Assembly: GCA_965178125.1 (NCBI GenBank)
Contig: OZ237739.1
Location: forward strand, 1,054,001 to 1,118,000
Direction: 5' to 3'
DNA length: 64,000 bases
From: Bilabrum cf. latius
Taxonomy: Eukaryota
The translations under genes were made by a program, and so were the position numbers. Positions 15,531-56,542 of this stretch are shown one piece after another. How positions within the stretch are numbered: the stretch's first letter is position 1; the number at the start of each line of letters is the position of its first letter. The notes under the pieces are model-generated. The model was not told the origin of the DNA. It saw only the letters and a program-made list of their open reading frames with translations, and did not search any database.

Positions 15531-18500
15531 TCACATGGGCCCGCCGCCCAGCTCACGCGAGGCTCCTGCCAGCAGGTCAGCAAGCGCCGCGCCCTCCCCC
15601 GACGAATCAAGCACAGCGGCAGCTGACGCGAACGGCCGGCCGCCCCGCCGCGCCATCCCCTTGCCAGCCCGCGACGCCTCCACGGCGGGTCTGCTGGATG
15701 CGTACCCTGCGTGTCGCAGCGCTGCACCGCACTCGTCCACCACCCCGACCAGCACGTCCTCACACGAGGCCACCCATGCACCATGAGCATCAGAAGGCAT
15801 GGTCTGGGTGGCGGCGAGCACACGGAGGGCGTAGCATCGCAGCATGCGGGCAAAGTCCACCGCGCCCGCTCCGGTCACCATGCCCTGTCCCTGCCACACG
15901 CACGCCTGTAGCACCCGGCACAGCCCCAGCGCCCTGCACGTGGCAACCGCAGGAAGCAGCACGCTCTCATGCGTGCCCTCACAAACGAGCGGCTCGCTTA
16001 GCCACGACGCGCCCACCGCCCCCTCATCATCCCCACCGCCATCACCACCCGACCGAAGCTCGGCAACACAGGCAGCGGCCGCTATGGCCTCCTCCGCTCT
16101 GACAGCAGGCGTGCTCACCACTGGTGCAGCGGACGGCAAGGGGCTGTCCCCGCGGGGACTGGTCCCCGCCCCAGGCGATGCCTATACAGACTGCTTACCT
16201 CCCGCGTGCCTCCACGGAGCCGCATCCGGCGAGGCAGGCGCCTGCGCCGCGGGGTGCCAGCTAGGCAGTCTCGTCACCGGCCTGCACCCCATGACCCTCC
16301 TCACCCCGAGCAGGAGCCTCGCTGGGGTCCAGCCCTCGAGATCTGCGTTGCTCTCCGGCAGGGATCGCCGCGGTGCCTGCTGCCCTTGGGAGTCACCGCC
16401 CTCGGGGACGGTCTGGCCCGGCCTGATCCTGGCAGCGAGCCCTGCCATCAGCGGCCCTACCCTGGATGCTTGCCTGGACCTCCCACGCTTGAGCCAGGCG
16501 CCCACGCCCCCGTGCACCGCCTCCGCCTCTGCAGCGTCTAGCAGAAGCACCTGCGGCAAGATGGCACCGTCGAGGAGCCTGCCCGCGAGGCCAGCGGCCT
16601 CCTCGGCGGCATGCAGCGTCACTGCCTCCAGCATGCGACCCCTCCCCGCGGGGTCCTCGTCTGTGTACGCCGGCTGGAACGCGCCCGGGATTGCGAGGAG
16701 TGCCTGTGCCTCGGAGACGCACGCCAGCAGGCACCGGCACACAGCCGCCGACTGCCCCCCGTGGCATGCCCTAGCGCAGTGCCACGCACCAGACCTGGTG
16801 GCCAGCAGCCTTCGCGCAGCCGCAAGCGGCATCCATGGCTCTGGCACCGAGGCGGCCAGTGGAACTTCCTGGTGTCCCGACAGGACTGGACTCGCTAGCA
16901 TCCCTTTGGTGCTGGCGTACAGCTTTGGCTGCTCGAATCGATCTGGGATGCACCTGTCAAGCACTTCGCGCGCGTCCCGGATCCACAGGGCGCGAGACAC
17001 GTCCTGCTGAGCCGCGATGTGCTCGGCCTGGCTCCCATGGCCCGACGCGGGCGAGAAACTGGGGAGAACTGCCCTGGGTATGGTCCCGGTGGACGCTCGA
17101 GTGGGACCGCAAGGGGCTGCGAGGGCTGCGCGCATCAGCACCGCCACAGCCCAAGGCCACTGTCCATCCGCCTCTAGCTGTGCAGCGAACCCACGCACGG
17201 TGCTGCAAGCTGCCCGCCGTGCCGCCCCGTGCATCAGAGAGTGCCTCGCAATCGATTCGTTCGTGCTCTGCGCCAGCTGGATCCCGCGATACCTGCCATC
17301 GTCGCCGTCTTCCTCGTCTTCATCCTCGTCTTCGAAGCTTGGCTCAGCCCCGCGAGCTGCATCCATCGCCTCCTCATACCCGGTCACGTGCCCGCTGCTC
17401 AAGAGGGTCCACAGAACGAGAAAGGACAGCCGGCAGTCTGCTGGGTCTGGCGTGCTTCCAGAAGGCCGCAGGACGTTAGCCAGGTGCACGGGTGCCAGCC
17501 CAGCCTGGGGTCCTCTGCCTGGTGCTCGCGGCGTGGATGCCATGCGCAGCAAGGCCCAGCAGGCGTCCGCGTGCGCGGACAGGGACCAGTCCACCGCTGC
17601 ACCCGAATCCCTGCCGGACGCAGCACCGCCCGAGCCAGAGACCCACCTCTCTCTCGCCTTTTCTACCGCATCACCTGGGTTGGGCAGAGCCACTGCACCG
17701 CCAGCACCGGCGCCCTCGCTGCCATCTTCGGACGGCTCGCTCATTCCTATCGCCTCGATCTCAGGGGCCGTCAGTGGGCCATCGGCTCGCTCGAGCCACC
17801 ACGGCTGGGGGTGCGTGGCTGCGCCCTCGCGCACTACGCAGGCGTACGCTCGCACAGCGGCGTCGACAGTAAGCTCTCCTAGAGGCCTCGAGTCTTGCGA
17901 TTGCCCCGCGTCGCCGCTACCCGCTGCAGCCCCAGAGGCATGCCCGTCGGAGTCGCCGAACAGCCCGCCGGCGCTGCTCCCGTGGACGAGCCACTGCCCC
18001 GCTACTGCAAGCAGGGCCACTGGCCATGATCTCGCCTGCATGGCACACTCAGGCGCCTCGATCGAGCCGCTCGCGAGGGCCAGGGCCGCGCGCCCCGCCC
18101 CGCCCGGGCCAAGCAGCCTCTTCGCTCGCTTCCCCGCCGGCGAATCTCCATCGGCTGGGATACCCATCTCCATCCAGCCGTCTGCCGCGCTGGCCTCGCT
18201 CCCTACAGCGGCAGACGAGGGCCCGCCGAAGCTGTCGTCGAAGGCGGACGACCCCAGCCCTAGCCCTGCCCCTAGCTGCTGCCTCCTCACCCAGCGAGCC
18301 ACCCGACGAGCCGCTCGCGCGCTGCCGCTGGACGCAGTCGCGACCGCAACGCTCAGCCACGGTAGCCCCGCTCTCTCCGCGGCAGCCGCACAGCCTTCCC
18401 AGTCCCCTGCCAGAGCCGCCCTCCTGATCCCGCTGGCCAGCGCATCGTCCTCCGCCTCAGCATCCAGCGCGTCCAGCACACCCTGCGCAGCGCCGCCGTC

Positions 18501-19586
18501 CCCAGGCAGCCTCCTCACGTGCACTCCTTGCGCTACGTGCCTCCTCGCCGCGGCCCTGAGCCACTCCAAAAGCGCCTGTCGGCGCCAGGCCGCAGCGGCT
18601 GACGTGTCCCGGGCCCCGACCTTGTCGGGCGCGGGGCCCACCAGTGCAGTAAGAAGCGAGATGAGCTCAGCGGCATGCCGCGCGCTGCCCGGAAGGAACC
18701 AGGACGAGGGCGCGGAGAGCGGATTGGCAGCTTCTCGGCCTCTGATCTGCAACCCACGCAGTCCTCGGTGGACCGCTGGCCCCGGCTAGGCCAGTTGGTG
18801 TGCCCTCTGCAGCCGCCTGTCCTCCGCAGCGTCCGCAGAGGCAGAGGCGGCCTGCTCCTCCGCCTACTGGCCCGCCGCCCGGAGGAGTGCCTCACCACCG
18901 TCCCCCGCCGCACCATACCTCCCCCAAGCCAGCAGCAGCGGCCTCGTGAATCGAGCACGCTGCGAGGACAGGGCAGCTCTAGAGGCAGGGCCTCCTGCCG
19001 CCGGCAATCCCACCCCCGATTCTCCACGAAACAGCCCACCGGCTGGCACGACGCGTTCGACGTGCACGCAATGGGCCGCCGAGAGGGCTGGATCCGCCGT
19101 GCTCTGGCAAGGGACTGTCTGCAGCTGGGACGAAGTCTGTTGCTGCTGCTGCCTCCTTGAGTGAGAACTGCGAGTGAAGCTGTGGTTTCCCTTGTTCTCA
19201 TTTACATGAACCCTCACCCCGCTGGATGGGGCACCCGAATGAGCGAACAGGCCGCCGGCGGTCCACCCTACGCGGAAGCGTCTCCGTTGGGCAACGTCTG
19301 GCATCTCGAACGGAGCGATGCGGGTCGAGTTCGGGCCAGAAGGCGTCGAAGCCACACCCTAGCTCTGCATATGGGCTGCATAACTAGCTGCTCCCATCGC
19401 GATCACCGCCTCGCTCGGAGACGCGCCGTGTCCCAGGCCAGGCAAAGAGGGAGCCATAATCGTCTCGGCTGCGATTCTGTCTTCGATGTTCACGGAATTG
19501 CGCTCTTCGTCGGAACGTGATGCGGCCTGAGCTCGCAAAGCAGCTGCTTCGTGAGCATCTGCAAGCTCCGCACCTGCATCAGACAT
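15531..19586 (-). CDS. NUP96: Nucleoporin Nup96-like, separately encoded, ~1351 aa
   Basis: RRFRVGWTAGGLFAHSG and FAAQLEADGQWPWAVAVL match Nup96 motifs (RSFRVGWGP; QLESxGLWxWAIFVL); four TAGs (19359, 18864, 18786, 16182); ends TGA. Confidence 0.75.
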
Positions 19587-20040
19587 GGCTAGCCGAGGCA
19601 GCACCCGGGGCACTTCCGAGCCTGGCGGGTGTAGCTGCTACAGCCAAAACTGGCGCGGCTCTTGCGAAGAGCACATCATTTTCGTTTCATACAAGAATGA
19701 CTTTCGCTGGGACCGAGCATCTCTACCTGCGCTACTTGCACTAGCGGTGGGGGGCTGCCTTGGTCGGATCGGAGCTGATGAGCGCAAAGGCCTTGGTTCA
19801 GAAGAAGCCAGCGCTCTCGCAATAAGAGGCTCCGGCGGGCTGAGTAAATCTTGTATGTGCGCATCATCCGATGCTTGCATGCTGCGCACCCCTCGTGTGA
19901 ATACTCAATCGGGCGTTTGAAGCGAAATGTGGTTTGTGTAATTTCACTCGCAACAAAAAGATTGGGCGCAGATTGGTGAGTTTGGGATTGGTTTGCAACG
20001 TGCCAGTGACACTGCTATGCACTGCCTCAATGAGTAAAGT

Positions 20041-21679: not shown

Positions 21680-23635
21680 TCAAGCAGCCGCAGAAATCAT
21701 GAGCCTCCCTACGAACACGCCGACGATGGGCACCCCACAGTCCATCAGGGCGGCCTGCACATCGACCACAGATAGCAGGCTCGATGAGCCCGCAGCCCAG
21801 GCATACGCCGCCACTGCCGCAATTCGCACGGCAAAGCAGACTGCAGAGCCGAGCAGCACTGACTGGATGCCGTGCTCTCGGACGAAGTACGACTGCCAAA
21901 TGTCTGCGAACATTCGATCCCACCAGCGACGAACCCGAGCCGCGATATCCCTATGCAGCCCCGTCCACCCCACCCACATCGCTACACCGAGTATGCACAG
22001 CCCCAATAGCATCAGCTATGTTGACTGCATCAGCTCGGGCTGGAGGCTGAAGACCCACCACACCCCGAAAGTGCCCCAGCGCCACAGCAAAGCAACAACA
22101 TGAAGCATGGCGCAGGCCACCGCGAAAAGAAACTTGCGCTGGCAGATGAATGAAGCAATCACAACCCAGCCCGCTAATATGCCCGCAAGTAGTGCACGCA
22201 GTGTGCCGATGGCTCCTGTCCCGGCACCTCTCCTGCTTCGCTCGGCTATCGTGAACGCCAGGGCTGCGAAGCTGAACCACAGCCCTACCTGCCAGCATGA
22301 AGTCATGAGCGCAGTATACAGGTCAGCGAGTCCCTCGAACCCCTGGTGCGATACTTCCACGGACCCGATCCCATTCTGCATGCTGCTTGCGCTGGCGCCC
22401 ATAGCGGTGTTGCCGCCCCACATGGCCATGCAGAACGTTGCGAAAGCAGTCCCGATCTGCGCTAACGCTGTCCATAAGATAGATAGAGTTCTGATGCCCA
22501 CTATCATCTCTAGGATCTCCTGAAGCAGAACAGATTCTCGGGACCAATTCGGCTTGCGAGGCCACTTGATGGGCACTTGCTTGGCAAGCTTTTTCCGGTT
22601 TAGTCTCCGAAGCACCCATCTAGCGGGACGAAATCCAAGTGACAGTACCACGGCAGCTTGATACGCTAGCCAGTTGAATATATCCTCGCAAAACGGAAGG
22701 TCGCTGAGCTTGGGCAGCCGGCACTTGGAGAGGACGGCAGATGCCCCAGCGAGCAGAAACATTGGCGCGAGACCAGTCGCCATGCCCAGAGAGCAACCAA
22801 TTGCCAGCGATATCGCGAAAGGGATCAGTGGAATGCTTAACCATCCAGCTGTATATGCGCAGGCCGCTCTGGCGAACCTTCGATACGGCTTCGAGTGGGA
22901 TTGAAACTGCTTGCACGCAAACGCCTCCGGGCTATCGTCGGTTTGATAGTGCTCCGTGATGCAGTGATCTATCTCCAGGCCACATTCCCAGCAGAACTCG
23001 CATCCGCACGGGCACGTCATGTGGTTGCAGCCGGCACTGCGGTTGACCAATGCCCCGCAGTGATGGCACTCGATTGCCTGCTCTCGCGCACGGCGCTCGC
23101 TCGCTTTGTCCGCTTCGCTCACGTGGTTCATGTAGGCAGCACAGCTAATCTCGTCAGGGTTGTGTGCACAGCCATGGATTCGGCAGCTGACTTTATCGCA
23201 GCTGTCGCATCGAATCGCGGTCTCTGCTGCACTGGGCAATCGCACCAACTCGTCGCACCAGGGACACGCCGTCGAAGAGCCTTCCTGTATCTTTTTTGTG
23301 CGGTGATACAGGCTCCATAACGACTCGCCAGTGGCATCAGAGTCATCTTCTCCCTCCTGCTGCCAGCTTCGCACGGAATCGCTTAAGTGGCGAATTAACG
23401 TTTCGTCCACCTTCCCAGCGCACGGCGAGTCTACTGCTGCCCCAGGGCAATCGATCTCTTTTATAGGTTTCCGATCCAGCAAATGCTGGCGAACGTAGCC
23501 CGATGTACAGCGTTTGCATACTGCATGGCTACCGTTCGAGCATCCGGCGGCGAAACATCTGCTATGGGCTCCACTCGCACTGTCCAGCTCTGAAAAGCAT
23601 ATAGTGCACAACTCAATAGCTACTGATTTTGGCAT
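21680..23635 (-). CDS. RBR (RING1-IBR-RING2) E3 ubiquitin ligase with multi-pass membrane C-terminus
   Basis: CTICFSEL..HAVCKRC..CPG; CPWCD..CDSC; CHHCGALVNRSAGCNHMTCPCGCEFCWEC; many hydrophobic helices; TAG at 22018-22016; ends TGA. Confidence 0.85.
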
Positions 23636-23841
23636 GATAGCGCCAATATATACTCGATAAGTTCTATTGATGTAAATTTGTGTTTCGTAAATTTGTGCCA
23701 ACTGCCGTTCTCGGAACTTGCAAGGAACCTTCCGGAGTCCGCAAAGAACCCCAACGAGCTTACGTGTTAACGGCCTATCCAGACTTGCTTTGCCGTACTC
23801 GTACCTTTCAAATTCAGACGCGCTGGGTGACCAAGCCACTT

Positions 23842-26800
23842 TCAGATGCTGTCAAGGCCTGAAATCCAAGGGTCGGCCCTGCACGCCTGCTTGATCCCAG
23901 CCAAGTCCAGCCCCCCAGCATGAAGCACCTGCCGCAGGAATGCCAAATCGCGGCCGCGCCCAAGCCCCTGCTCGTCTCCACCCAGCCTCTAGCCCGAAGC
24001 ATACGCCTCTGCATCATCATGATGAAACGTGCTACCTCCTGCATCCATGCCAAGACTACATGCCGTCGACAAGTTGAGCCTCTCTGGTTGGAGGCGAGCA
24101 GATGCTGCGGTCTGCACCCCACCGCAGCCTTCCCTTCCGTCACCCATGCAAGCCCCGCCAGGCACAGCGGCAACCACGTCTACGTGAATATCGTCTGTTT
24201 CGAGGCAGGAGGCCTGACAGGACGCCACCAGGACCTCACCAACTATGTCAAGCCCCTCAAGACTTGGAGGGAGCAGATGCCCGGCCAGATGCGCCAGGAG
24301 GATCTCGGCTCTCCTTGCCCGCATCCAGAACGACACCTGAGAGCGCCCCAAGGTGCACGCAGGGGCGGGTTTGGAAGACGGCAGCCACGTTTCATTCGTT
24401 GAATCAGGCCAGGCTGCCATCTGCGGGCCCAGCAGGTCGTTCGCAGAGGCTAGCAGCGATTCGTGCTGCTGCAGCACGGACCCGTAGGCCTACAGCTTCA
24501 ACTGGTGCCTCGGCCGCACATGTGCATGCAAGAACGGACCATCAGTGCGCTCGGTATCGTCCAAATCCTATGCGGTGTCTCTCGGCTGCAGTGCAGCTCG
24601 GCGAATGGCCCGCCGTATGCGGCCAGCGACGGCCTTCCCTCGTGGTGCGATGCTGCCCTCGCACAGATCCGCCAGCTCGATCGAGAGCTGCGATCCTAGC
24701 AGGCACTTAAGCGCGGGCCCAGAGGCATCGATTACCTGCGTCGTCGTCTAGTGGAGCTGGTGGTTGGTGCTGCTGCGGATTCGGCCAGCCATGACCCGTT
24801 CCAGCTCCACCAGCAAGTTGGTTTCCTGCTCGGTGAACCTCTCGATGGCATCCGTTCCATGTATTCGAATCAGCTCGGCCCGGAGAAGCACGCAGCCTGC
24901 AGCAATCGCTGTGACGCAGATCAATGCCACGATGGCGAAAGCAGCCAGCAGCCTCCAAGAGGTTGGATGTGCTGGAATCATCTGAAAGCTACCCAGCACC
25001 ATCGTCGGAACACGGTAGCGAGTCCCGGCGAGCATGAGCAATGCAACAGCATGCGCACCCGCAAGGACCAGTAGGGAAACGTCTGGTGAGTTCGTGTCAA
25101 GGCTCGCTAGCGAGCTCATCTTGACGGAATTCAGAATCTGTGCCCCAGACACGACCCCGAAGGCAACCAAGAACCCGTAGTGGGCGTCGTTGCCCAGGAC
25201 CGCCGATGCTTCGGCCAGGCAGAACGAACCGAGAAGCAGAAATAGATGCAGAAACGGCCAGCAAGCTTGCATCGTGATGAGCCTGCCAAGCTTCGTTGCT
25301 TTGGGCTGGATCCACTGGTCGTACTCGTTGTGCAGACAGAGGACTTCGCGGATAGGATCGAGAAATCGCCAAAAGGCTCCCAATCGCAAGGCCACCCACC
25401 CGCAGAGGACGAAGCACGCACACGCCAGAACCAGTAGCCATGCTGTCCGTGCCCATCCTCCTTGAAGCAAGTATGGAGCAGCACAGTGCAAGCTAAACTG
25501 CAGAGCAGCGAGAGGCGCTAGCAGTCCTTGCACGAATTCCCACCGAGCACGAATCCACACGCGCTCGCGGCTAGTGCTCGCGCGCACATCAAATTCTTGC
25601 TGAAGCTCAGACGGTAGTGCGGGGTACATGGAATCTGGCGGCAGGCTGCAGAGCGCCTCGATAGCAGCCCGCCTTGACTCAGTCCACCCGGCGCACAGGC
25701 ACCGGCATCGCGTCTTGCCCCGATTGATCTGCTCAGCGACGCAGCACGACCACGGCATCGAGCCGAATAGCACAAGAACCAAAGCAAGCAAGCGGACATA
25801 GAACATCCACCCGTGCTTGTCAAGCACCATAGATGATTCGACGCCGATCAGGCCGCCGAGCTTCTCTGAAGATAGTCCGGAGGCATACGAGAGCAATGGC
25901 ATGCCGCAGTGCGCCGAGCTGTTGGCAAGGGCATCGTACAATGTAGTCGTTTCGTTGGGGTGTACCTCGGAAGCCGCTCGGTCCATGAGTGTGCCCCAAC
26001 CTCCCTCTACGTCTGGTGGTGGGTGCATCTAGAGGCAGATTGGGTACAGCTCGTGTAGAGTCCCGTGCCACGTCCCCCACAACAGCAGGACAGCTGGCAG
26101 CAGAACACGCATTGTCACATGCAGTACCACCTATGCACAACCAGTAATAGGGGGAGGCAATGAAACTTCTTCTCCAATAGAGCCTTGGACCGCTCGTACA
26201 CGATGATTGATGTTTCTTGCCGCTTTAGCTAGCAGCCATCGCAATTTCTCCCTGTGCTCGTGGGCTTGGCACCACCTGACAGCCTAACACATGACTGGGA
26301 GGCTGGAAATACCCCGGGGCATCTAGCTTCCACCTTGCGCGATGGTTTCCGGGCAGGCTTCTGTGCTCCTTGGCTCGATAGTGTCACCCGATTCTTCGAT
26401 TGATCTAGTCCGTGGTGTAGACGGGGCGCTCCACCAGCGAGAGTCTGGCGACACAGAATTGTTTCGACCCAGGCCAGTTGACCCACGTGGATCCATTGAA
26501 GTTGGCTGTTGGCAAACACCTTCGTGTTTTCTGTTATGTTGCGTCTACCGTCGCCTAGCGGTCGGGTGGACGCGGTCAGAGCTGCCAATCAGCACTGCGT
26601 CCTGCCTCGTAGGCAGATCTACGACTGTGGCTGGCTAGGCCGAAGAGCCCGGCGATTCCGGCGTTGCAAACGTCTCCCGCATACGCGCAGCGACAGAACC
26701 GCGGGAAAAAGCCTCTCCCTTGGTCGCGCAAGCAGCCTGCTCCATCTCGTCAGCACGATCGATCTTGGCAGCAGGCGGGCACGCGGGCAAATTCGACAGC

Positions 26801-27336
26801 AGCACATCGACCCTGCTCCTGTCTGCCCTGCCTACAGTCGAATCCTAGGCAATATGAAATAGGCCATTCAACGACATGTCTTGGATCGTGCTAGCCAGCG
26901 GGCTAGGGAGGCCGCTGCTGGCAGGAAAGGCAGCTGTGGTGACTCGGACAGCAAGGCAGCGCTGAGCTGTCTGTGCCTGGATCGCTGCCGTGCACTGCAT
27001 CGGCAGGTGGGCCGCGACTAGTGCCACTGCAGACAGCAAATCTTTACACAGGTTACGCCTGACAGTTCCTACGTCGCGCCTCCTTCTGTTTGAAGCGTTG
27101 ATGGCAGTGCCGAACGCCACCGGGCGGATGTTCGCAGAATCTATGATGGCCTTCGATTCGACAGCGCTGCTGTGAAGCAATTCACGCCCCCGGCGCATAT
27201 ACCAGAAGCATAAAGCTACTTGACACAGCAGAAAGTGGTCGGACGCGAGCCAGAATCCAAGTATCCTAGGTATATCGTCAACCTAGCCGGCATTGACCGC
27301 CCGGGTAAGCCTCAATATGGCATGCTGCAACACCAT
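23842..27336 (-). CDS. Hypothetical multi-pass membrane protein, ~1160 aa, start uncertain
   Basis: One frame open from 27570 to 23842 with about 12 TAGs and no TAA/TGA; hydrophobic cluster at 24850-25830; ends TGA. Confidence 0.55.
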
Positions 27337-28045
27337 CGTTCGACGAACCCCAGTTGGAAACACATGTACACAACCTGATAGACCGTGGATCCAAGCAGGC
27401 TCGCATACGCTAGAGCGGGAAAGCGAATGGGCAGCCGAACAAGTGCTGCTCAGCCGAGTTGCATCTGACACAGACAGTGATGAAACGATTCTTGCGAATA
27501 TTACTGCAGTTAGAATGGTCCAATAAAAACAACTAGCGGGCAAAATCCGTTGGAGAACTTTTCGGTTGGCTCAACGCTTGCAAACGTTGCTCACTTGGCT
27601 ACCCCCTCAGTATCTTCTCCATCTAGTGCCCTTGCTAGACGGGAAAATTGCACCCTGTTGCCTGCATGAAGACAAATAGAGCTACTTACTAAAGATGGGG
27701 CTTTTCATATAGCTCAGTGGCAGCAAACATCTACAAAAACGCACGTGGGGATTCGCACACAGGTTTGGCCTCACGTCAATAATGGTACAATGGAGACAAA
27801 CGGACAAAGTTACAAGGACAGACGAGTTAATTCATGAAATATTAATAGTTCGAGCAAGGTATCTAGCCAAACGATTGCTTCATGTGCCGGCATTTCCTGC
27901 AGTTAACTTATCCGATTCGTATACCAATATCAACACTGTATAATTGATTCAAGGGTGGCAACACCAAATCAGAAATCGCCGTTCTTGGAGCTCCCACAGC
28001 CTCCACTGCAGTGTTTTTGGGCTTAAACTAATAGTATTAGATACA

Positions 28046-31000
28046 ATGTCCGGATGGGGGAATGATTCTAGCGTGAGAAGGTCTTTTTGTTCCATGTGTG
28101 TGCATTGTGGCTTGCACGTGATTCTCTCATCCTCCTGCCTACGTTCCTGCTCAACTACATATGTTTGGAGATGCTTATGTATCTTTCTAGTAATAGTTAC
28201 TGCTATGATGTGGATTTAGGGATGGGTGTGCTCGGTTTCGCTCGTGCCGCAACATTGTTGCCATTGCATATCCTGTCGTGCAAAATGAATCGCAGTACGG
28301 AGGCGGCGGCGATGGCTGGGGTAATAGCGGCGGTGGTGGCACGTCTGGTGGATGGGGCAACCAAGGAGGCGGTGCTGGTGATGCTTGGGGCAACTAGGGG
28401 GGCGGCGGGCAGTCCGGCGGTTGGGGCAACAGTGGTGGCGGCAACAGCGGCGGCAGCGGCGGTGGGTGGGGCAACTAGGGGGGTGGTGGTGGCACGTCTG
28501 GTGGATGGGGCAACCAAGGAGGCGGTGCTGGTGATGCTTGGGGCAACTAGGGGGGCGGCGGGCAGTCCGGCGGCTGGGGCAACAGTGGTGGCGGCAACAG
28601 CGGCGGCGATGGTGGGTGGGGCAACTAGGGGGGTGGTGGTGGCACGTCTGGTGGATGGGGCAACCAAGGAGGCGGTGCTGGTGATGCTTGGGGCAACTAG
28701 GGGGGCGGCGGGCAGTCCGGTGGCTGGGGCAACAGTGGTGGCGGCAACAGCGGCGGCAGCGGCGGCGGCTGGGGCAACTAGGGGGGCGGTGGAGGCAGCG
28801 GCGGTGGCACATGGCAGAGCAACTTTCCCATCGGCACACAGCGAATCCAGCCGGAGGCATCGAGACACGATCAGAAGAGCAGGCGCGGAAAGGTCACGAG
28901 CAGCTTCATCCACAGCTGCTCGGCCATGCGCGCCTATGCTGCCAAGTCTGTGGACGAGCTCAGGCTGGAGGACTACGTCAACGGGAAAAGGACCAACCCG
29001 GCGGTACTCGTGCATGGGCATGCGGGCGTGCTGCCCGGCATGCCACCGCCTCAACAGGGAGGGGGTGGTGGTGGTGGTGGGTGGGGCTCCAGTGGTGGGG
29101 GCGCGCAGTCTGGTGGCTGGGGCAACGGTGGAGGAGGCAACAGCGGCGGCGGTGGCTGGGGCGACTCGGGGGGTGGGTAGTCGGGCGGTTGGGGCAACTA
29201 GGGGGGTGGCGGGCAGTCCGGCGGATGGGGTAATTCTGGGGGCGGGCAGTCTGGTGGCTGGGGCAACGGTGGAGCAGGCAACAGCGGCGGCGGTGGCTGG
29301 GGCGACTCGGGGGGTGGGTAGTCGGGCGGTTGGGGCAACTAGGGGGGCGGCGGGCAGTCCGGCGGATGGGGTAATTCTGGGGGCGGGCAGTCTGGTGGCT
29401 GGGGCAACGGTGGAGGAGGCAACAGCGGCGGCGGTGGCTGGGGCGACTCGGGGGGTGGGTAGTCGGGCGGTTGGGGCAACTAGGGGGGCGGCGGGCAGTC
29501 CGGCGGATGGGGTAATTCTGGGGGCGGGCAGTCTGGTGGCTGGGGCAACGGTGGAGGAGGCAACAGCGGCGGTGGAGGCTGGGGCTCTTCTGGCGGTGGT
29601 GGATCGTCTGGAGGATGGGGCAGCAGCGGTGGAGGTGATGGTGGTTGGGGATCTTCTGGCGGCAATAGCGGTGGTGGCTGGGGCTCGTCTGGCGGAGGTG
29701 GGTCATCGGGCGGATGGGGCGACTCTGGCGGCGGCTGGGGATCTTCTGGCGGTGGTGGATCGTCTGGAGGATGGGGCAGCAGCGGTGGAGGCTGGGGCTC
29801 GTCTGGTGGTGGCGGGTCATCCGGAGGATGGGGCTCGTCTGGCGGCAGTGGTTCGTCCGGTGGTTGGGGCAGCAGCGGCGGGGGCTGGGGCAGCAGCGGC
29901 GGTGGGAATCAGGGCAACGGCTAGAATAACAGCATGGCGGTGTACGGTCCCGCTGTGGTGGACCAGTCGGAGGGCTACAACGAGCGGCTGCGGACCATGG
30001 TGGCGCGAGCGACTCTAGAAGGTGCAGAGGCCTCCATGCAACAGGAGAAGTCTGCGATCGAGAGGGAGCGCAAGAACATGAAGGACCTGGTCAATGCCAG
30101 GGTTCAGAGGATCCGACCGGCCCCGGGACTGGCGCTCACTGGCGGGATTGCCGGTGGGGGCGTTGCCTCACGCCCGCGAGCCACTGCCCTGATGTCCGGC
30201 TCGTCCAACGCGGCCCTCGTGGGTACGAGCGGCAGCAGCATAGCGGGCAGTCGCCTTGGCACTCCGTCCGGGAGGGCATCTTTGGTGCTTGGTGCCGCCA
30301 CGATGGCCAGCGGCATGATGGGGATGGGCCGGTCGGGTTCCATCGGGGGCGCCTCGTTCGTCTCGGGTATGTCTGGGTACTCAGGGTCTGCGTCCGTGGG
30401 AGGGTCTGGGCTCCGGGCGCGGCTAGCCGCGTCTGCTCTGTCGGGCGGGCGCCTCTCGCACGCCGGCGGGGGCAGCATGGCGGGCAGGGAACGGATCAAG
30501 GCGCTTCTGCGGGACTCGGCGCGGTCCAGCTCTGCCTCCTAGAGGGGTGCGCTTGGGCAGGACCTGTACAGGCAGGAACCGAAAGACTACTCTGACGACG
30601 AAGACGACGGGTAGGATGGGCGAGGGGCGTCCCAGATGCATGGTTCCTAGTCCGCCATGCCGAGAATGGCCTCATCGCAACCAGCCGCGGCCATCCCGCC
30701 CAGGTCGGTGCGGGGTGCCGCGGCCAGGGCACTGGTCATCGGCAATGCGATGGTGCCGGGGGATGACGGCCGCATCGAGGCGCAGGTAGCCTGGGTGCCG
30801 GAGCGGGTGGACCCCCTGGATTCGACGCTGCTGGAGGCACCCGTGGCCAGGACGGGGTTCTCTCGAGTCCTCGTCGTGATGGCCACCTCGGCAGGTGTCT
30901 CTGCGGAGAGCAGGAAGGCCGCCCTGGGCCAGGCAGCCGTTCGGACGGACGCGATCGTGGACGCTACCCTCCGGCACGAGCGCCAGGAGCTGGAGGAGGT

Positions 31001-32294
31001 GGCCAGGACGCACGCCGGCGTGCCCTCGGCCAACACGCTCACCGACCCGGGCATGCTTGGAGGCGCGGGCAGGGCTTCTTTCGCTCGGCCCGGCCACCTG
31101 CTGGCCTGGGTGGTGGTACCCACCGCCGGTTTGACCACGTCTCACGTCCTGGACGCAGCGGCCAAAGCCAGGGACGCGTGGTCCATCGTCCCCGCCAAGT
31201 CGGACGACGGCTTCACGGATCTCCCTGACGACGACGAGGCAGACGCTCTGGAGGACGGCACAGACCCAGCTGCTGCTGCTGCTGCTGCTGCTGCCGGGGA
31301 TGAGGAGGAGTCCAAGCACGGCGACTCTGCGCGCCCCGGTGCCTCCAAGAGGCCCAGGCCGAGCATCATGCTGCCCTGCCAGATGCTGTGCCCGCTGACT
31401 TCGAGGGAGCTGCAGGCGGCCTCGGACAGCATGGTGCACGTGAGGCCAGCCAGCCGAGCGGTGCTGCTGCCGCGAGGGGAAGCTCTGCACGGGCACGGGG
31501 TTCGCGACGGGGACTGCGTGGAGGTCGTGTGCGACGTGAGGGGCAGGCCAGCATACGAATACGAGCCTGTGCGCGCCGACGTGGCTGCACGCAGGGAGCA
31601 AGAGGCGGCTGCGAAGCAAGCGGCAGCGTCAAGGGGCGCCGGGTCATCGTCCAAGCGAGCGGGGGCCGCAGGGAGCGAGAGCAAATCCGGCGAAGCGGAC
31701 ACAGGGCCAGGCTCAGCTGCTGCCACGCGAGCCGATGCCGGGGCCCGGGGACCCTCCCGCCAGGTATCAGCGGCAGAGAAAGCCCTTAGGGCTGAGATGC
31801 TGCGGGACGAGGCATGGTACGAGCAGCAGCGCGCCTCTAGGCACGGCAGGAGGCTGCCCCGGCTGCCCTCCGTGAACGATGGGTTCTTCGTGCAGCCGGG
31901 GCACAGGGCCCTGGCGGCCATGACCGAGGAGCAGCTCTCGAGGGTGGAGGGCTTCAGCGTGGGGGTGCCCGGGATCGGCGAGCTCAAGTGCCTGGCTCCC
32001 GTGGACTTGAGGGGAGAGGACGTTGCCGCCATGCTCGTGTTCGAACAGGACACGGTGGAGGTGCGAAGGTTCCTTGAGGGTTCGGAGCAGGGCAGCAACC
32101 GGCTGCCCGATGTTCCCGCGGTGGTGTCGATGCAGCTGTTCGGCGACGGGAAGCTGCTCGGCCCGTCCCAGATGGAGGAGGTCGAGAGGGCCCTGCGGCA
32201 GGACGACGGGGCAGCCTCGGGGCAGCCGAAGCGGTTCCGCGATTTCTCCAAGGAATCCGGGGTGTATTCGTTCACGGTGGAGCGATGGGCCTGA
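28046..32294 (+). CDS. NUP98: Nucleoporin Nup98-like (WG repeats, GLEBS, peptidase S59-like domain); join(28046..28072,28296..32294)
   Basis: GLEBS-like CSAMRAYAAKSVDELRLEDY; C-terminal LSRVEGFSVGVPGIGELKCLAPVDLRG..GVYSFTVERWA; about 16 in-frame TAGs; ends TGA. Confidence 0.8.
28296..29910 (+). repeat. Coding minisatellite encoding GGWG/WGN repeats (units of ~150 nt and 141 nt)
   Basis: Recurring anchors at 28395/28548/28698 and at 29178/29319/29460. Confidence 0.9.
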
Positions 32295-32413
32295 TGTGGC
32301 GTTGGTGGGCAAGTTTCGTCGCGCTTGCAATTGCGCGCAGTTTCACGCAATGCTGAAAATCCGATATCTTCTGGATCGCTTCATGCAGTTGCAGTAGTAG
32401 CTCTCGAGCATCA

Positions 32414-35400
32414 ATGAGGTTTCTTTATCCCGCAGGTTTCGTATTATGCCTGCATATCATGCATGTCGTAGGATACTCGATGGGTTGGCAGCCCCAGCCG
32501 CGGCAGGATGCCGTCGTTTCATGGCCGGTGACGGGAGATGAATTCGAGTACAGAGTCACAGTGATAAGCGATGCAGTGTTTCGCATCGAGCTCATCAGTT
32601 CGGGATCCGATGGTGACGACAGGCCCACATTGCGCGTCAAGAATCGCGATTTGGGCGCGACACCGACGTATACGACTACGCCCGATGGCAACGGGGCGAT
32701 CACTGTTTCGACCGCCCGAGCATCGATTCGAATCGACGGAAGCAAGCCAATTCCCAGCTCTTGCGCCAAAACCACGGATGGAATCGATCAGGTAGGAGGG
32801 CAGCGCGTGCCATCGTATCCCCAGGGTCTGCCGAATGTATCTTTGGAGCAGTGCTGCGCTGCCTGCGATAACGCGACAGGCTGCACCACGTTCGTCTGGG
32901 CGAGCGACTCCAAGATGTGCTACTTGATGAAAGGTGTTCAATCCACAAAGTCGGCCTCGAACCGAACGCTGGGAAGCAGGGTTCCGACCGGCTCGGCGTC
33001 CGGGAGCAGCTGCCTGCCGGCTGGGTCCGTAACAGCGACGTTCCAGCTCGTTGCCGGGCCGCCGCTGCCCCCTGCAAATTGGACCGGCAAGTGGACCGAC
33101 GCTTCGTCTGCAGCGGGCAACCTGGGCGGCGTCTGGGAGAAGCTGGACTGCTACAGCAACCCCAGCGAGTGCTTCGACACGTACGTGGCGGGCGAGCACA
33201 CTGGCATCTTGTCCAGGGACGGTTGGGCCGTGCTGGACGAGACGACGACGGCGCGGCTCTCTGGTACGCAGTCCGACGATGGCGTGTTTGGGCCCTGGTG
33301 GGCGGTAACGTCGACGGATCCTCCTATCGCAGCTTCTACCGACGTGTGCGACGTGCTGGTCTTGCTGGAGGGCAGAGACTACGCCACTGCGGCGCGCGAC
33401 TGGCAAGAGGTCAGCGGCCCCATCCAGCTGCTGGACGAGGAAATGTATGACGTGTGGTGGAGCAGGCACGACCCGTGGAACGCGAGCTAGCTGCACGACT
33501 TGCTGCAAGGGTACGCCGATAACAACCTCCCCATGCGAACCATTAGCATCGACATGCAGTGGCACACGCTGGGGTACATGGACAACCCGCCGAACGTGAA
33601 CGGGCCCGGAGACACTTGCACCATCGATGATGATGATGGGGTGCCTGCGCTGCAGAGCCACGGCGCATCGTCACGCAATCGCCTAGACAGCGTCCACCGC
33701 AGCATCGGCGGCAGTACCGAGCTCACAGTTGGCGACACCAAGTGCAAGGGCTGGGGCGGGTTCGACTGGAACACCACCGCCTATCCCAATCCCAAGGACT
33801 TCGTGGACAGCTATTTCCACAGCCCAACTGGGAATCCGCTCAAGAACCCCATCAACGTGCTGCTCAACGTTCACCCGCAGGACGGGATCGACCACTGCCA
33901 GGCCAAGTACCCAGAGTTCGCCGCATTCACCGGTGTGGACCCGGCCTCGAACGAGACCATCACGATGGACAACGGAAACCGAACTCTGATGCTGAAATTC
34001 TTCACCGACTACCTCGGTGCAGACCCCCTCTCTGCGGTCGATGCATGGTGGACGGACTACTACGGCTCCAAGGGCCCCAACGACCCGAGGCAGTCGAGCT
34101 CGCAGCTGCTGTGGTCCAACTACATGTATGGCACGTCATAGCTGGTGCAAAGGGGCAGGCGACCCATGGTGCTCACCAGGAGGGGAGGCCTGGGTGACCA
34201 CGCGTTCTCGCCCGCCTTTAGTGGCGACGTGTTCCAATCGTGGGACATCCTGACCTATGAGGTGAATTTCACCGCCAGGGCTGCTTCGGGCGCTCTGCAA
34301 GCGTGGTCGCACGACATCGGTGGATTCCATCGTTTTGGAAGCACGCCCGGAGCCTGCGTGCGCGGCGATGGCAACGTGACCGATCCGCTGGCAGCCGAGC
34401 TCTATATGCGCTGGATCCAAGCCGCCGTGTTCTGGCCGCACATGCGAACCCACTGCCGATTCTGCGAGAGAAGAGTGTGGATGTTCACGGGCTTCGCGGG
34501 TGCCATGGGGGACGCATTCCGCCTGAGGCATGCCATGGTGCCGCACCTCTACAGCGCCATCGCTACCGCGGCCGAGACCTCTGCCCCGTACCCCATTCGC
34601 AGCCTATTCGTGGACTACCCCGAGGAGCCGCTCGCCATGTAGTTTGCAGACACTCAGTTCATCTACTGCGACAACATTACGGTGGCACCGATCGCCAGGC
34701 CTGGTCTTGTATCCACAGATGCCGATGAGGCCATGGGCACTAGCAGTGCCATCACCGCTTCGGCATCGAATGTCACAGCGCCTTTGGCCATGACGCAGCA
34801 GCTGTTCGTCCCACCTGGGGAGTGGGTGACGTGGGAGGCGGCGCGGGCGTTCAGGGGACCCTCCACTGCCACGCTTGAGCTAAGCTCGGTGGCCTCCCTG
34901 CCAGCACTGGTCAAAGGCGGGTCCGTGGTGTTCACGCGACCGTGGAACGCCTCCAGCGCAGAACCGATGGTAAAGCGACCGCTGACTGCTGTGGTATTTC
35001 CGTCGTCCACGTGGATGTCGACGTCGGGCGCATCGCACGGTCGCGCGGCAGACGGCATGGTTCGCATGGACAGCAGGCGGGTGGAGCTTTATGAGGACGA
35101 CGGCAAGTCGGCTCCGGCGTCAGGCACGGTGGGCGCTCCGCTTCGGGCTCGGCAGCTGGCCGGTGGATTTAGGGCGTCTTGCCGCACGCCGGTGGCGTAC
35201 GCGGTGGTCCGCTCTGCCGAGACCGGCAGGGTGTCCATCCGAGGCACAGTGGGACCGTCGATCGGAGCAGCTTGCAGCCCTGTGGGTACTACTCGCGCTG
35301 TCAGGGTGGAGCTGCGTGGGGCTGGCATTCGAGATGGTCCGCTGGGGCAGGCCCGGGGACTGTTGGGACTGGCTGAGCCAGCGGATGGCCTGTGCCCTTC

Positions 35401-35491
35401 CTGCCGACCAGGCGGCACAGTGCTTCTGCTCGATGCAGAGGCAGATACGTCCGTTCCCGGTGGCGTCAAGTTTGAAATGCCACTGAACTGA
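32414..35491 (+). CDS. Secreted glycoside hydrolase family 31 with inserted PAN/Apple domain, ~1025 aa
   Basis: Hydrophobic N-terminus; CCAACDNATGCTTFVW..CYL (PAN); WWSRH, IDMQWH, LNVHP, VDAWWTDY, FSGD, WSHDIGGF, ELYMRWIQ; TAG at 33488, 34139, 34640; ends TGA. Confidence 0.9.
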
Positions 35492-55866: not shown

Positions 55867-56542
55867 CAATGCTACTTATGTGCACAAAATACCAGCCTAA
55901 ACAAATTTCTACATCAGAGACGCCAAGTACTTACACGGCCGAATCGTCTACTACAGCCAAGAGAGGGTGGCTTGGCTGTCCCCTTGCGGAAGCTGCTGGC
56001 TTTGAGCCCCGACGAATATCTGGAGCATCACTCGATCCAAATGCTATCCTGGATGAAGAATAGTCCTGCGGTTAGAGAACGTGCAGAACAGCCAAGAAAC
56101 CGAAGCATGTTCCGTTAACACAGGGCGTTCTGGATCAGCGCTCTTCGTGCCTCACAATCGCTATTGGGGGGACGTTACCATTCCCAGCCATTACGTGTGC
56201 TACTGGGCAGATGATCAAGTGGATTGGCCCCTACTGTGGATGCTATGCCGGTTATCCTCAAACGCGATTCCGCCACGCCGCGGCGGTCGCAACCCAACAA
56301 GAACGTGCCACCGGGATTGTTGGTCGCAGATTCAGACATCACTCATGCTGTGCATCGCAGGGGGGCATGCTAGTGCTAGCGCATGGGTCATAAATCGTGC
56401 CTCACGGGCCCATTAATGCTACTCCCAGCGCAGCGCTGCATGTGAGAAGCTGATTTCTCCTGGACTTGTGCTGGTGAGGCATCACCGAATGTGATCGGAG
56501 GCCAATAGGGCTTCGTCCAGCCTCCCTTGGCAACTATCGGAG

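What the first reader, a model, noticed from the sequence alone, without database searches (positions are those of the whole stretch)
28296..29910. Nup98 with WG repeats in place of FG/GLFG repeats
The repeat domains flanking the GLEBS motif are dozens of GGWG/WGN/WGS units, with essentially no FG. Known: Nup98 FG repeats form the nuclear pore permeability barrier, while WG/GW repeats are Argonaute hooks. Inference: either a Trp-based pore phase or a nucleoporin that recruits Argonaute.
Basis: partly seen in the sequence, partly recalled or inferred. Interest (0 to 1): 0.7.

Follow-up and report, generated by a model that had tools for sequence, protein, structure and literature searches.

The report
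Nup98 pore protein with tryptophan repeats
A transcribed gene for the nuclear-pore barrier protein Nup98 has all of its usual phenylalanine-glycine repeats replaced by tryptophan-glycine repeats, in a microbe that reads the stop codon TAG as glutamine; this breaks a rule thought to hold for all eukaryotes.

Summary
The gene has two exons (28046-28072 and 28296-32294) and encodes a 1341-residue Nup98-type nucleoporin. It has a GLEBS motif and a C-terminal S59/autoproteolytic-domain fold, supported by Pfam, PDB alignments and an AlphaFold model with Foldseek matches.

The 552-residue N-terminal domain holds 39 WG motifs (34 of them GGWG) and no FG. Motif number, spacing (11.7 +/- 1.8 residues) and domain length match the published norms for Nup98 FG domains (43 +/- 6 motifs, one per 12.5 residues, 549 +/- 87 residues). 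Only the aromatic residue has changed.

It is open only because the organism reads TAG as glutamine, and several lines of evidence across the window support that.

A spliced contig in a public run confirms the intron and the start codon. Nup96 is a separate gene nearby, and the catalytic His-Phe-Ser is replaced by Arg-Trp-Ala followed by the stop codon.

One unrelated metagenomic Nup98 homologue mixes FG and WG motifs, which suggests that the two are interchangeable.

My best reading is a Trp-based cohesive pore domain. This is untested. An Argonaute hook or a specialised paralogue cannot be excluded, because no genome was available. No published report of a WG nucleoporin was found.

The parts
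27984..28045 (+). 5' untranslated region (minimum extent)
   Evidence: The spliced contig of run X5 starts at 27984 (table 8, record 9). There is no ATG between 27984 and 28046 (sequence read).
28046..28072 (+). Exon 1 coding part: MSGWGNDSS. It already contains a GWGN unit.
   Evidence: First ATG of the transcript, 27 nt, phase 0. The joint 28072->28296 is seen in one contig of run X5 (table 5).
28073..28295 (+). Intron, 223 nt, GT..AG
   Evidence: table 5: 'skips 223, GT..AG', depth 9.56, 89 nt on the shorter side. DNA run X1 is contiguous across it (record 1). The ATG of the rival +1-frame ORF (28286) lies inside this intron.
28296..32294 (+). Exon 2: the rest of the coding sequence, ending in stop codon TGA at 32292-32294
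   Evidence: A single open frame of 1361 codons if TAG is sense. The terminator is TGA.
28296..28808 (+). N-terminal WG repeat block (protein residues 10-180; with exon 1 it holds 14 WG)
   Evidence: Tandem 153-nt unit x 3.1.
28809..29057 (+). GLEBS linker (residues 181-263). The GLEBS core lies at 28911-28976.
   Evidence: Pfam PF21240, E 1.5e-5, 25.4 bits. Aligned to 4owr_B, 7byf_B and 3mmy_B.
29058..29924 (+). C-terminal WG repeat block (residues 264-552; 25 WG)
   Evidence: Tandem 141-nt unit x 3.5 at 98% match.
28395..30650 (+). 16 in-frame TAG codons read as Gln. Their first bases are at 28395, 28476, 28548, 28626, 28698, 28779, 29178, 29199, 29319, 29340, 29460, 29481, 29922, 30540, 30612 and 30648.
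   Evidence: Six of them (28395, 28779, 29922, 30540, 30612, 30648) lie in contigs of run X5 with no differing letter (table 8).
29925..31877 (+). Middle region of about 650 residues without a Pfam family. Its C-terminal part is conserved in a relative.
   Evidence: No Pfam match even at E <= 10. 60-62% identity to P0002/L001. dN/dS about 0.21 over 405 codons.
31878..32291 (+). Nup98 autoproteolytic (S59) domain. It ends ...FTVERWA where canonical proteins have ...VEHF|S.
15531..19904 (-). Separate Nup96 gene, transcribed away from Nup98 and 8.1 kb from its start
   Evidence: Pfam PF12110, E 3.2e-13. The ORF is open only with 5 TAG read as sense and ends in TGA.

Best explanation
This is the functional, transcribed Nup98 orthologue of a GC-rich eukaryote that decodes TAG as glutamine.

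By homology, its C-terminal S59-fold domain anchors it to the pore scaffold. That domain no longer needs to cleave itself, because Nup96 is now a separate gene and the protein stops one residue after the old cleavage site. By homology again, its GLEBS motif docks the mRNA-export factor Rae1/Gle2.

The disordered N-terminal domain, which in all described Nup98 proteins is a GLFG/FG repeat domain, has been rebuilt from tandemly amplified GGWG units. It keeps the conserved design values of a Nup98 FG domain: about 40 aromatic-Gly motifs, one per roughly 12 residues, about 550 residues in all, no basic residues, very few acidic ones, and G/S/N/Q spacers.

The most likely function is therefore the same one. 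The domain would be a cohesive, phase-forming barrier that transport receptors dissolve into, with tryptophan instead of phenylalanine as the sticky residue. That would require receptors adapted to Trp.

Shown: the gene model, the domains, the composition, the TAG=Gln code and transcription/splicing. Inferred: pore localisation, phase behaviour and receptor binding.
For: Gene and frame.
- One contig of run X5 joins 28072 to 28296 (GT..AG). Contigs of that run cover exon parts only and stop at 27984 and 32364, while DNA run X1 runs on.
- The first AUG then reads MSGWGNDSS|YGGGGDGWGN. GLEBS and S59 lie in the same frame.

TAG = Gln.
- With TAG as sense the window yields ORFs of 5409, 1978, 1457, 1361 and 1242 codons, against a maximum of 867 under the standard code.
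- 9 of the 10 long ORFs checked end in TGA.
- A TAG in UTP7 aligns with a Gln conserved in the yeast and Chaetomium proteins. A TAG in the GH31 gene aligns with Gln.
- Two adjacent TAGs sit inside a poly-Q run.
- Within the repeats, TAG and CAG/CAA occupy equivalent positions.
- The relative L001 also has 2 in-frame TAGs and ends in TGA.

Nup98 identity.

Design values.
- Here: 39 WG / 40 Trp in 552 residues, spacing 11.7 +/- 1.8; in the 469 repeat residues, 11 Asp and no Glu, Lys or Arg.
- Published norms from 666 Nup98 FG domains: 43 +/- 6 FG, one per 12.5 +/- 0.7 residues, length 549 +/- 87 (PMC4283134, passage read).

Interchangeability of F and W.
- P0024 is an unrelated metagenomic Nup98 homologue (S59 E 1e-27). 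It interleaves 8 FG with 9 WG and 6 GW at similar spacing, and has HW|T at the cleavage site.
- The window protein itself has Trp where the cleavage-site Phe should be.

Precedent and selection.
- Engineered Nup98 repeats with Tyr in place of Phe still form a selective phase (PMC9918544, passages and section 19 read).
- The C-terminal half is under purifying selection against a 60%-identical relative, dN/dS about 0.21.
Against: - No experiment or localisation data exists for this protein.
- No whole genome is held. I could not count FG versus WG in the other nucleoporins, could not look for a second, canonical GLFG Nup98, and could not inspect the transport receptors.
- PMC9918544 reports strong selection against Trp in Nup98 FG domains of all clades. 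It also shows that the Tyr variant essentially excludes native importin-beta, transportin and Xpo1. A WG phase would therefore work only with co-adapted receptors, which are not shown here.
- The repeats lack Leu, so each motif has one large hydrophobic residue where GLFG has two. Phase behaviour could differ.
- The repeat copies are 94-98% identical at the DNA level, so they are young. The 39 motifs are not 39 independent observations of selection.
- The splice evidence is a single 243-nt contig, in a run that the tool only guesses to be RNA (it adds 'probably DNA').
- The GLEBS score is just below Pfam's cut-off.
- The repeat domain of the only close relative could not be retrieved, because L001 is too short.
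- In that relative the two TAGs align with Trp and Ser of the window protein, which says nothing about Gln.
Confidence: 0.58

Rival explanations
1. The WG domain is an Argonaute hook. Multiple Trp residues in a Gly/Ser/Asn-rich disordered chain would bind the Trp pockets of Argonaute/PIWI proteins and tether small-RNA silencing complexes to the pore. This could replace the barrier role or add to it.
For: The composition of the repeats (G 58%, S 16%, W 8%, N 7%, some D; almost no F, Y, H, C, M) fits the published composition of AGO-binding WG/GW domains. Those are rich in G, S and W, then E, D and N, and poor in C, F, H, M and Y (PMC2910046, passages read).
Against: - Nothing in the Ago-hook model predicts that motif number, density and domain length should match the Nup98 FG-domain norm.
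- It also does not predict that FG and WG should interleave in another Nup98 homologue.
- PMC2910046 itself warns that glycine-rich proteins are common false positives of composition-based detection.
- No paper linking GW/WG repeats to a nucleoporin was found.
- Whether the organism has Argonaute at all could not be checked, because no genome is held.
Confidence: 0.1
2. It is a specialised Nup98 paralogue, or a variant not needed for the barrier. A canonical FG Nup98 and other FG nucleoporins would make the barrier. The WG version would tune selectivity for a subset of pores, stages or cargoes, or would be a drifting, mutation-driven expansion of a G-rich minisatellite that is tolerated.
For: - Repeat units are young tandem copies (94-98% identity) on a strongly G-skewed strand (GC skew +0.38).
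- TGG is the aromatic codon one step away from the Gly codon GGG, so expansion of a GGN/TGG satellite is mutationally easy (inference).
- The library search returned many Nup98-type domains of unknown origin at about 30% identity, for example P0005 with 12 FG. I cannot exclude that one of them comes from the same organism.
- From memory, not checked here: the Tetrahymena micronuclear Nup98 paralogues use non-GLFG repeats.
Against: - Only one gene type above 35% identity was found: P0001 (the same gene at 96%) and the 62-66% relative.
- The gene keeps GLEBS, the anchor domain, linkage to Nup96 and the canonical design values, and it appears to be spliced and transcribed.
- A neutral satellite would not be expected to hold the spacing at 11.7 +/- 1.8 residues with no stop other than the sense TAG.
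Confidence: 0.25
3. It is not a real protein feature: a pseudogene broken by TAG stops, a wrong reading frame (the +1 frame is open under the standard code), or an assembly artefact of a G-rich repeat.
For: - Under the standard code the WG frame has 13 stops in the repeats, and the +1 frame is open for 648 codons.
- Public gene calls kept only the C-terminal 541 residues (P0001).
- Contigs of all four laid runs break inside the repeats.
Against: - TAG is a sense codon throughout the window.
- The ATG of the +1-frame ORF lies in the intron that is spliced out.
- Exon 1, GLEBS and S59 are all in the WG frame.
- Every laid piece of the four runs that is longer than about 55 bases matches the window with no differing letter (table 8).
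- The only stop-type codon in the frame is TAG.
Confidence: 0.03

Closest known systems
Canonical Nup98 / Nup145N / Nup100 / Nup116 GLFG nucleoporins
   Same: - Architecture: disordered repeat block, GLEBS, repeat block, linker, then a C-terminal S59-fold anchor domain.
- Repeat-domain length, motif number and density, and charge depletion.
   Different: - 0 FG and 0 GLFG; every motif is WG (39).
- No Leu in the repeats; spacers are 58% Gly.
- The catalytic His-Phe-Ser is replaced by Arg-Trp-Ala followed by the stop codon.
- An unusually long middle region of about 650 residues.
- 16 TAG codons encode Gln.
Engineered GLYG ('YG phase') and other non-FG variants of the Nup98 repeat (Ng et al. 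2023, PMC9918544)
   Same: The aromatic residue of every repeat is swapped while spacing and spacers are kept. Those variants still phase-separate and exclude inert protein.
   Different: - Those variants are synthetic, and a Trp variant does not appear in the passages I read ('GLWG' occurs 0 times).
- Native receptors were essentially excluded from the YG phase.
- This is a natural protein that must work with its own receptors.
P0024, an unnamed metagenomic Nup98 homologue with mixed FG/WG repeats
   Same: S59 domain (E 1e-27). Trp-Gly motifs in the N-terminal repeat domain. Trp at the cleavage-site Phe position (HW|T).
   Different: - Only a partial replacement (8 FG, 9 WG, 6 GW) in a domain of about 270 residues that is Ser-rich rather than Gly-rich.
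- No GLEBS detected by Pfam.
- Not specially related to the window protein: 40% identity over 60 residues only.
AGO-binding WG/GW domains (GW182/TNRC6, NRPE1, SPT5L)
   Same: Many WG/GW motifs in a Gly/Ser/Asn/Asp-rich disordered region that is poor in Phe and Tyr.
   Different: Those proteins are not nucleoporins. Their motifs are irregularly spaced (from memory). Here the motifs sit exactly where a Nup98 FG domain sits and follow its metrics.
Split Nup98 and Nup96 genes (land plants, from memory; Cyanidiales, in earlier scan note e1-552228)
   Same: Nup98 ends at the old cleavage site, Nup96 is a separate gene nearby and divergently oriented, and the catalytic residues have been lost.
   Different: Here two other genes lie between the two halves (21680-27570, minus strand). 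The protein keeps one residue (Ala) after the Trp.
NCBI translation table 15 type codes (TAG = Gln; known from some ciliates and Iotanema: PMC11687900 and PMC5304391, search listings only)
   Same: TAG is used as a Gln codon and TGA as the terminator.
   Different: - The genome is GC-rich (54-70% per 2 kb) and intron-poor, from an unidentified eukaryote.
- The status of TAA is unresolved: one gene, UTP7, ends at TAA.

Membership tests
Nup98 / Nup145N family | C-terminal autoproteolytic (peptidase S59) domain fold | tested here: met
   - PF04096: 34 bits against a cut-off of 28.4, E 3.9e-8.
- Aligned over its full length to 5hb6_A.
- AlphaFold model at pLDDT 84.7.
- Its Foldseek matches at E <= 0.001 (E 1e-8 to 2e-4, TM 0.58-0.74) are all Nup98/Nup145N/Nup116 domains; the next hit has E 0.2.
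Nup98 / Nup145N family | GLEBS (Gle2/Rae1-binding) motif embedded between two repeat blocks | tested here: met
   - PF21240: E 1.5e-5, but 25.4 bits, just under the cut-off of 27.
- All 7 PDB matches (E <= 1; the best three about 2e-3) are Nup98 GLEBS peptides or Nup98 chains. The aligned core reads SAMRAYAAKSVDELRLEDY against TAMKEYESKSLEELRLEDY.
- The position between the two blocks is canonical.
- Rae1 binding itself was not tested.
Nup98 / Nup145N family | FG repeats with a prevalence of GLFG | tested here: not met
   0 FG and 0 GLFG in residues 1-552, against 39 WG. Of the 12 library homologues of 500 residues or more, 11 have 5-68 FG and 0-2 WG; the exception is P0024.
Nup98 / Nup145N family | Repeat-domain metrics: about 43 motifs, one per about 12.5 residues, about 549 residues, charge-depleted | tested here: met
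   - 39-40 motifs in 552 residues.
- One Trp per 12.0 residues inside the blocks (13.8 if the GLEBS linker is counted).
- 11 Asp and no Glu, Lys or Arg in the 469 repeat residues.
- Compared with PMC4283134 and PMC9918544.
Nup98 / Nup145N family | Catalytic His-Phe-Ser/Thr at the Nup98|Nup96 junction | tested here: not met
   The protein ends ...VERWA and then the stop codon, where homologues have ...VEHF|S. Nup96 is a separate gene. Cleavage is not needed.
Nup98 / Nup145N family | Localisation at the nuclear pore and contribution to the permeability barrier | not testable with these tools
   Needs microscopy, proteomics or phase assays.
AGO-hook WG/GW proteins | Multiple WG/GW motifs in a G/S/W-rich region poor in F, Y, H, C and M | tested here: met
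   Composition compared with the description in PMC2910046. This feature is not specific; the paper lists glycine-rich false positives.
AGO-hook WG/GW proteins | Binding to an Argonaute/PIWI protein of the same organism | not testable with these tools
   No genome is held, so I could not even check whether an AGO gene is present.
Genetic code with TAG = Gln (table 15 type) | In-frame TAG in conserved genes, aligned with Gln | tested here: met
   TAG alternates with CAG/CAA at equivalent repeat positions.
Genetic code with TAG = Gln (table 15 type) | TAA and TGA remain stops; a tRNA-Gln with anticodon CUA is present | tested here: inconclusive
   - TGA ends 9 of the 10 long ORFs checked, and TAA ends one, UTP7.
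- Allowing TAA as sense barely changes ORF lengths.
- The only tRNA in the window is tRNA-Ser(CGA).

The most novel reading that the evidence does not exclude
The whole permeability barrier of this organism's nuclear pores is tryptophan-based. Under this reading the other FG nucleoporins have also switched to WG, and the importins and exportins have co-evolved Trp-accepting pockets. That would make a natural transport system orthogonal to the FG system of all other studied eukaryotes, in a lineage that has also changed its genetic code (TAG = Gln). The mixed FG/WG homologue P0024 would then be an evolutionary intermediate in another lineage.
Probability: 0.3. Interest if true: 0.92.

Novelty: new variant of a known kind. 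Interest (0 to 1): 0.78.

Why it matters
The Nup98 FG domain is regarded as the main barrier-forming element of nuclear pores. Published surveys of hundreds of orthologues describe FG/GLFG motifs, and selection against tryptophan, as conserved in all eukaryotic clades (PMC4283134, PMC9918544).

A natural orthologue that keeps every design value but swaps Phe for Trp is a ready-made natural experiment. It can address two long-standing questions:
- Is the barrier defined by generic cohesive 'stickers' or specifically by phenylalanine?
- How tightly have transport receptors co-evolved with FG motifs?

It also shows how a non-standard code hides proteins. Public gene calls for this locus kept only the C-terminal 541 residues, so the WG domain is absent from protein databases.

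The host organism is a cellular eukaryote that reads TAG as Gln. That is of interest for genetic-code evolution in its own right.

Tried and rejected
Searches that returned nothing useful:
- The whole genome of the window is not held, so no census of other nucleoporins, receptors, AGO or tRNA genes was possible.
- The search for homologous proteins found nothing with residues 545-1332 or with the GLEBS-containing standard-code ORF. With a TAG-free WG stretch against longer proteins it returned one irrelevant hit, P0042, a TIGR03000-family protein. These word-based searches are swamped by low-complexity sequence and are weak evidence of absence.
- The search for related loci failed with alignment A1, which has no conserved stretch. 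With A2 it found one metagenome contig, L001, which is too short (2174 nt) to reach the repeats. Nothing was found in genome contigs or viral contigs.
- Earlier scan notes hold nothing on this genome or this sequence.
- Rfam found only the tRNA.
- Four literature searches for WG/GW nucleoporins found none.

Weak or unusable results:
- The first AlphaFold run, on a 5-sequence alignment, gave pLDDT 47.7 and was unusable.
A query with the unexplained middle region gave only sub-threshold 'ubiquitin-like' look-alikes at 0.76-0.80. BLASTP of that region against the oomycete protein P0008 was not significant, and Pfam found nothing even at E <= 10.
- No listed run is on record as RNA. Parts of the repeats have no contig cover in the RNA-like runs. 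That is expected for repeats and is not evidence either way.

Readings considered and rejected:
- Translation in the +1 frame.
- A pseudogene.
- TAG as a real stop codon with several short genes.

Not attempted: the organism's lineage could not be placed with the remaining tools.
Full report
**What is in the sequence.**
In the frame that starts at 28296, the stretch 28296-29924 encodes two blocks of Gly-rich repeats built on GGWG. The blocks are separated by an 83-residue non-repeat linker.

The first 552 residues of the spliced protein hold 39 WG, 34 GGWG, 24 WGN, 11 WGS and 4 WGD. There is no FG and no GLFG. The only two Phe residues are in the linker.

Trp residues are spaced 11.7 +/- 1.8 residues apart inside the blocks. 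None of 2000 residue shuffles was as regular, and shuffles gave 22.6 WG on average (maximum 32). No other ORF in the window has such an array.

At the DNA level the blocks are young tandem arrays: a 153-nt unit x 3.1 at 94% match and a 141-nt unit x 3.5 at 98% match. They lie on a strongly G-skewed strand.

**The frame depends on the genetic code.**
The WG frame carries 13 in-frame TAG codons inside the repeats and 16 in the gene. It has no TAA or TGA before the terminal TGA at 32292. Under the standard code it is closed, and the +1 frame (28072-30018, 648 codons, Ala/Gly/Val-rich) is open.

Evidence that TAG is a sense codon here:
- With TAG as sense the window gives ORFs of 5409, 1978, 1457, 1361 and 1242 codons. 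The standard-code maximum is 867. Making TAA sense instead changes almost nothing.
- 9 of the 10 long ORFs checked end in TGA. One, UTP7, ends in TAA.

Evidence that TAG means Gln:
- The TAG at residue 115 of the UTP7 homologue aligns with the Gln of the conserved FFAVAQKKY motif in the yeast and Chaetomium proteins.
- A TAG in the GH31 gene aligns with Gln in an alpha-xylosidase.
- Two adjacent TAGs lie inside a poly-Q run, QQLQMQQxxQIMMW.
- Within the Nup98 repeats, TAG sits where sister units have CAG or CAA: GGGQSGGWGN against GGG-TAG-SGGWGN, and WGNQGGG against WGN-TAG-GGG.
- A 60-65% identical relative from a metagenome, L001, also has two in-frame TAGs and ends in TGA. These two align with Trp and Ser in the window, so they are uninformative about meaning.

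The status of TAA is unresolved. No suppressor tRNA lies in the window.

**Gene model and expression.**
The long TAG-sense frame has no Met near its start. An ATG at 28046 opens a 27-nt exon (MSGWGNDSS). It is followed by GTGAGA, and 223 nt later by ...CAG|TAC at 28296.

Laying contigs of four public runs on 27900-32400 showed the following:
- One contig of run X5 joins 28072 directly to 28296 (GT..AG, 89 nt on the shorter side).
- DNA run X1 is contiguous across the intron.
- X5 has no cover inside the intron. Its contigs begin at 27984 and end at 32364, 70 nt past the stop codon.
- X5 contigs carry 6 of the 16 TAG codons unchanged.

The tool only guesses X5 to be RNA (it adds 'probably DNA'), and the splice rests on a single contig. 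This is good evidence but not conclusive.

After splicing, the first AUG is in the WG frame. The ATG of the rival +1 ORF (28286) is removed with the intron. The C-terminal 405 codons compared with L001 give dN/dS of about 0.21, with dS near saturation.

**What the protein is.**
- S59 domain: Pfam finds the Nup98-96 autopeptidase S59 domain at the C-terminus (PF04096, 34 bits against a cut-off of 28.4).
- GLEBS: Pfam finds the Nup98 GLEBS motif in the linker (PF21240, 25.4 bits against 27, E 1.5e-5). The linker aligns to the human Nup98 GLEBS peptides solved with Rae1 (4owr_B, 3mmy_B; E about 2e-3).
- Alignment of the last 136 residues: they align end to end with the Chaetomium Nup145N domain...GVYSFTVERWA against ...GVWAFSVEHFA.
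- Structure: a first model from 5 sequences was unusable (pLDDT 47.7). With 22 homologues the model reached pLDDT 84.7. Its Foldseek matches at E <= 0.001 (E 1e-8 to 2e-4) are all Nup98/Nup145N/Nup116 autoproteolytic domains; the next match has E 0.2.

Where homologues have VEHF|S, this protein has VERWA and then stops. The catalytic His and Ser are gone, and Trp replaces the Phe.

A Nup96 gene (PF12110, E 3e-13) lies on the other strand at 15531-19904. The Nup98-Nup96 precursor has therefore been split here, as in land plants (from memory) and in the red algae of earlier scan note e1-552228.

**Comparison with the Nup98 norm.**
Schmidt and Goerlich compiled 666 Nup98 FG domains. They report 43 +/- 6 FG per domain, one FG per 12.5 +/- 0.7 residues, a length of 549 +/- 87 residues, and spacers biased to G, T, S, A, N, Q and P (PMC4283134, passage read).

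Ng et al. list the features conserved in all clades: 500-700 residues; extreme selection against charge and against Tyr, His, Cys, Trp, Val and Ile; one FG per 12 residues; and GLFG prevalence (PMC9918544, section 19 read).

The window protein has 39-40 motifs and 552 residues. It has one Trp per 12.0 residues inside the blocks, or 13.8 if the linker is counted. In the 469 repeat residues it has 11 Asp and no Glu, Lys or Arg. Its spacers are made of G, S, N and Q. It meets every metric except the identity of the aromatic residue, and that is exactly the residue said to be selected against.

**Relatives.**
A full HMMER scan of 1.84 billion representative proteins with the C-terminal 547 residues gave 32 hits:
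- The same gene at 96% identity (P0001). It was called only from the first Met after the last TAG and is 541 residues long.
- Fragments of a 62-66% relative (P0002, P0003).
- About 30%-identical Nup98 domains, including the oomycete Bremia lactucae Nup98-96.

Twelve hits are 500 residues or longer. Eleven of them have 5-68 FG and 0-2 WG. The exception is P0024, which comes from an unnamed metagenome contig:
- Its S59 domain is strong (E 1e-27).
- Its N-terminal domain of about 270 residues interleaves 8 FG with 9 WG and 6 GW at comparable spacing.
- Its cleavage site reads HW|T.
- It is not specially close to the window protein.

This is independent evidence that, in Nup98 repeats, WG can stand where FG stands.

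The repeat domain of the close relative could not be reached. L001 is only 2174 nt, and the other collections gave nothing.

**How it most likely works.**
Shown: the gene, its splicing, the code, the domains and the composition.

Inferred by homology: the C-terminal domain anchors the protein to the pore scaffold without self-cleavage, and the GLEBS docks Rae1/Gle2.

Inferred from the preserved design values, from P0024, and from the experiments of Ng et al. (Tyr-for-Phe repeats still form a selective phase): the WG domain is a cohesive barrier domain with Trp as the sticker.

In those experiments native importin-beta, transportin and Xpo1 were essentially excluded from the YG phase. A working WG barrier therefore implies co-adapted receptors in this organism. 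This is a prediction, not a finding.

A plausible origin, by inference, is replacement of the ancestral repeats by amplification of a GGN/TGG-rich unit. The units are young, and TGG is one step away from the Gly codon GGG.

**Rivals.**
- Argonaute hook. The composition also fits the published Ago-hook profile (PMC2910046). That profile is unspecific, and it does not explain the Nup98 metrics or the FG/WG interleaving. No paper linking WG/GW repeats to a nucleoporin was found.
- Specialised paralogue beside a canonical GLFG Nup98. This cannot be excluded without the genome.
- Artefact, pseudogene or wrong frame. These are largely excluded by the evidence above.

**Verdict.**
This is a new variant of a known kind. 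It is a bona fide Nup98 whose FG domain is fully converted to WG, hidden from standard annotation by a TAG = Gln code. I found no report of it in print, within the limits of the searchable library and with supplementary files closed. The functional reading is the best-supported inference but is untested.

Noticed in passing
whole window 1-64000: The organism reads TAG as glutamine, and TGA is the usual terminator. Every long ORF needs TAG as a sense codon; the 5409-codon ORF at 39646-55875 (minus strand) holds 25 TAG. The window is GC-rich (54-70% per 2 kb) and nearly intron-free. The lineage was not identified. Whether this code is already described for this organism is unknown.
   Followed up: partly
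window 28072-30018 (+1 frame) and protein P0001: Under the standard code the +1 frame is open for 648 codons across the repeat. The public protein collection holds only a 541-residue C-terminal fragment of this gene. Standard annotation therefore misses the WG domain entirely.
   Followed up: yes
window 15531-19904 (-): The Nup96 gene is separate from Nup98, divergently oriented and 8.1 kb away, with two genes in between. The Nup98-Nup96 precursor has been split, and the catalytic His-Phe-Ser is replaced by Arg-Trp-Ala.
   Followed up: partly
protein P0024 (unnamed metagenome contig, 808 aa): Another Nup98 homologue has interleaved FG and WG/GW motifs and an HW|T cleavage site. It may be an intermediate, or an independent case of Trp entering Nup98 repeats. 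P0004 and P0021 also have Trp near the cleavage-site position.
   Followed up: partly
window 39646-55875 (-): A single 5409-codon ORF encodes an Ala/Glu/Arg-rich, coiled-coil-like protein with a Met/Gly/Gln-rich tail and no Pfam family. Two adjacent TAG codons sit in its poly-Q run.
   Followed up: no
window 30651-31740 (+): The middle region of the Nup98 protein is conserved in the relative (about 60% identity) but matches no Pfam family. The protein atlas gave only sub-threshold 'ubiquitin-like domain' look-alikes (0.76-0.80). Some oomycete Nup98-96 proteins seem, by eye, to have a ubiquitin-like stretch at a similar place. No significant alignment was found.
   Followed up: partly
earlier scan notes e1-5306704, e1-5483507 and others (other genomes): Several giant viruses in this scan read TAG as Gln and have unknown hosts. 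This window shows that a cellular, GC-rich eukaryote with a TAG = Gln code exists in public data. No link between the two was tested.
   Followed up: no
window 60460-62415 (+): The UTP7 homologue is the only confident gene in the window that ends in TAA, and no further in-frame stop follows within 50 codons. It is therefore not settled whether TAA is a stop codon.
   Followed up: partly
window 32357-35491 (+); L001 1435-2172 (-): A GH31 glycosidase with an N-terminal PAN/apple domain lies directly downstream of Nup98. In the relative L001 the homologous gene is on the opposite strand, so a local inversion has occurred between the two organisms.
   Followed up: no
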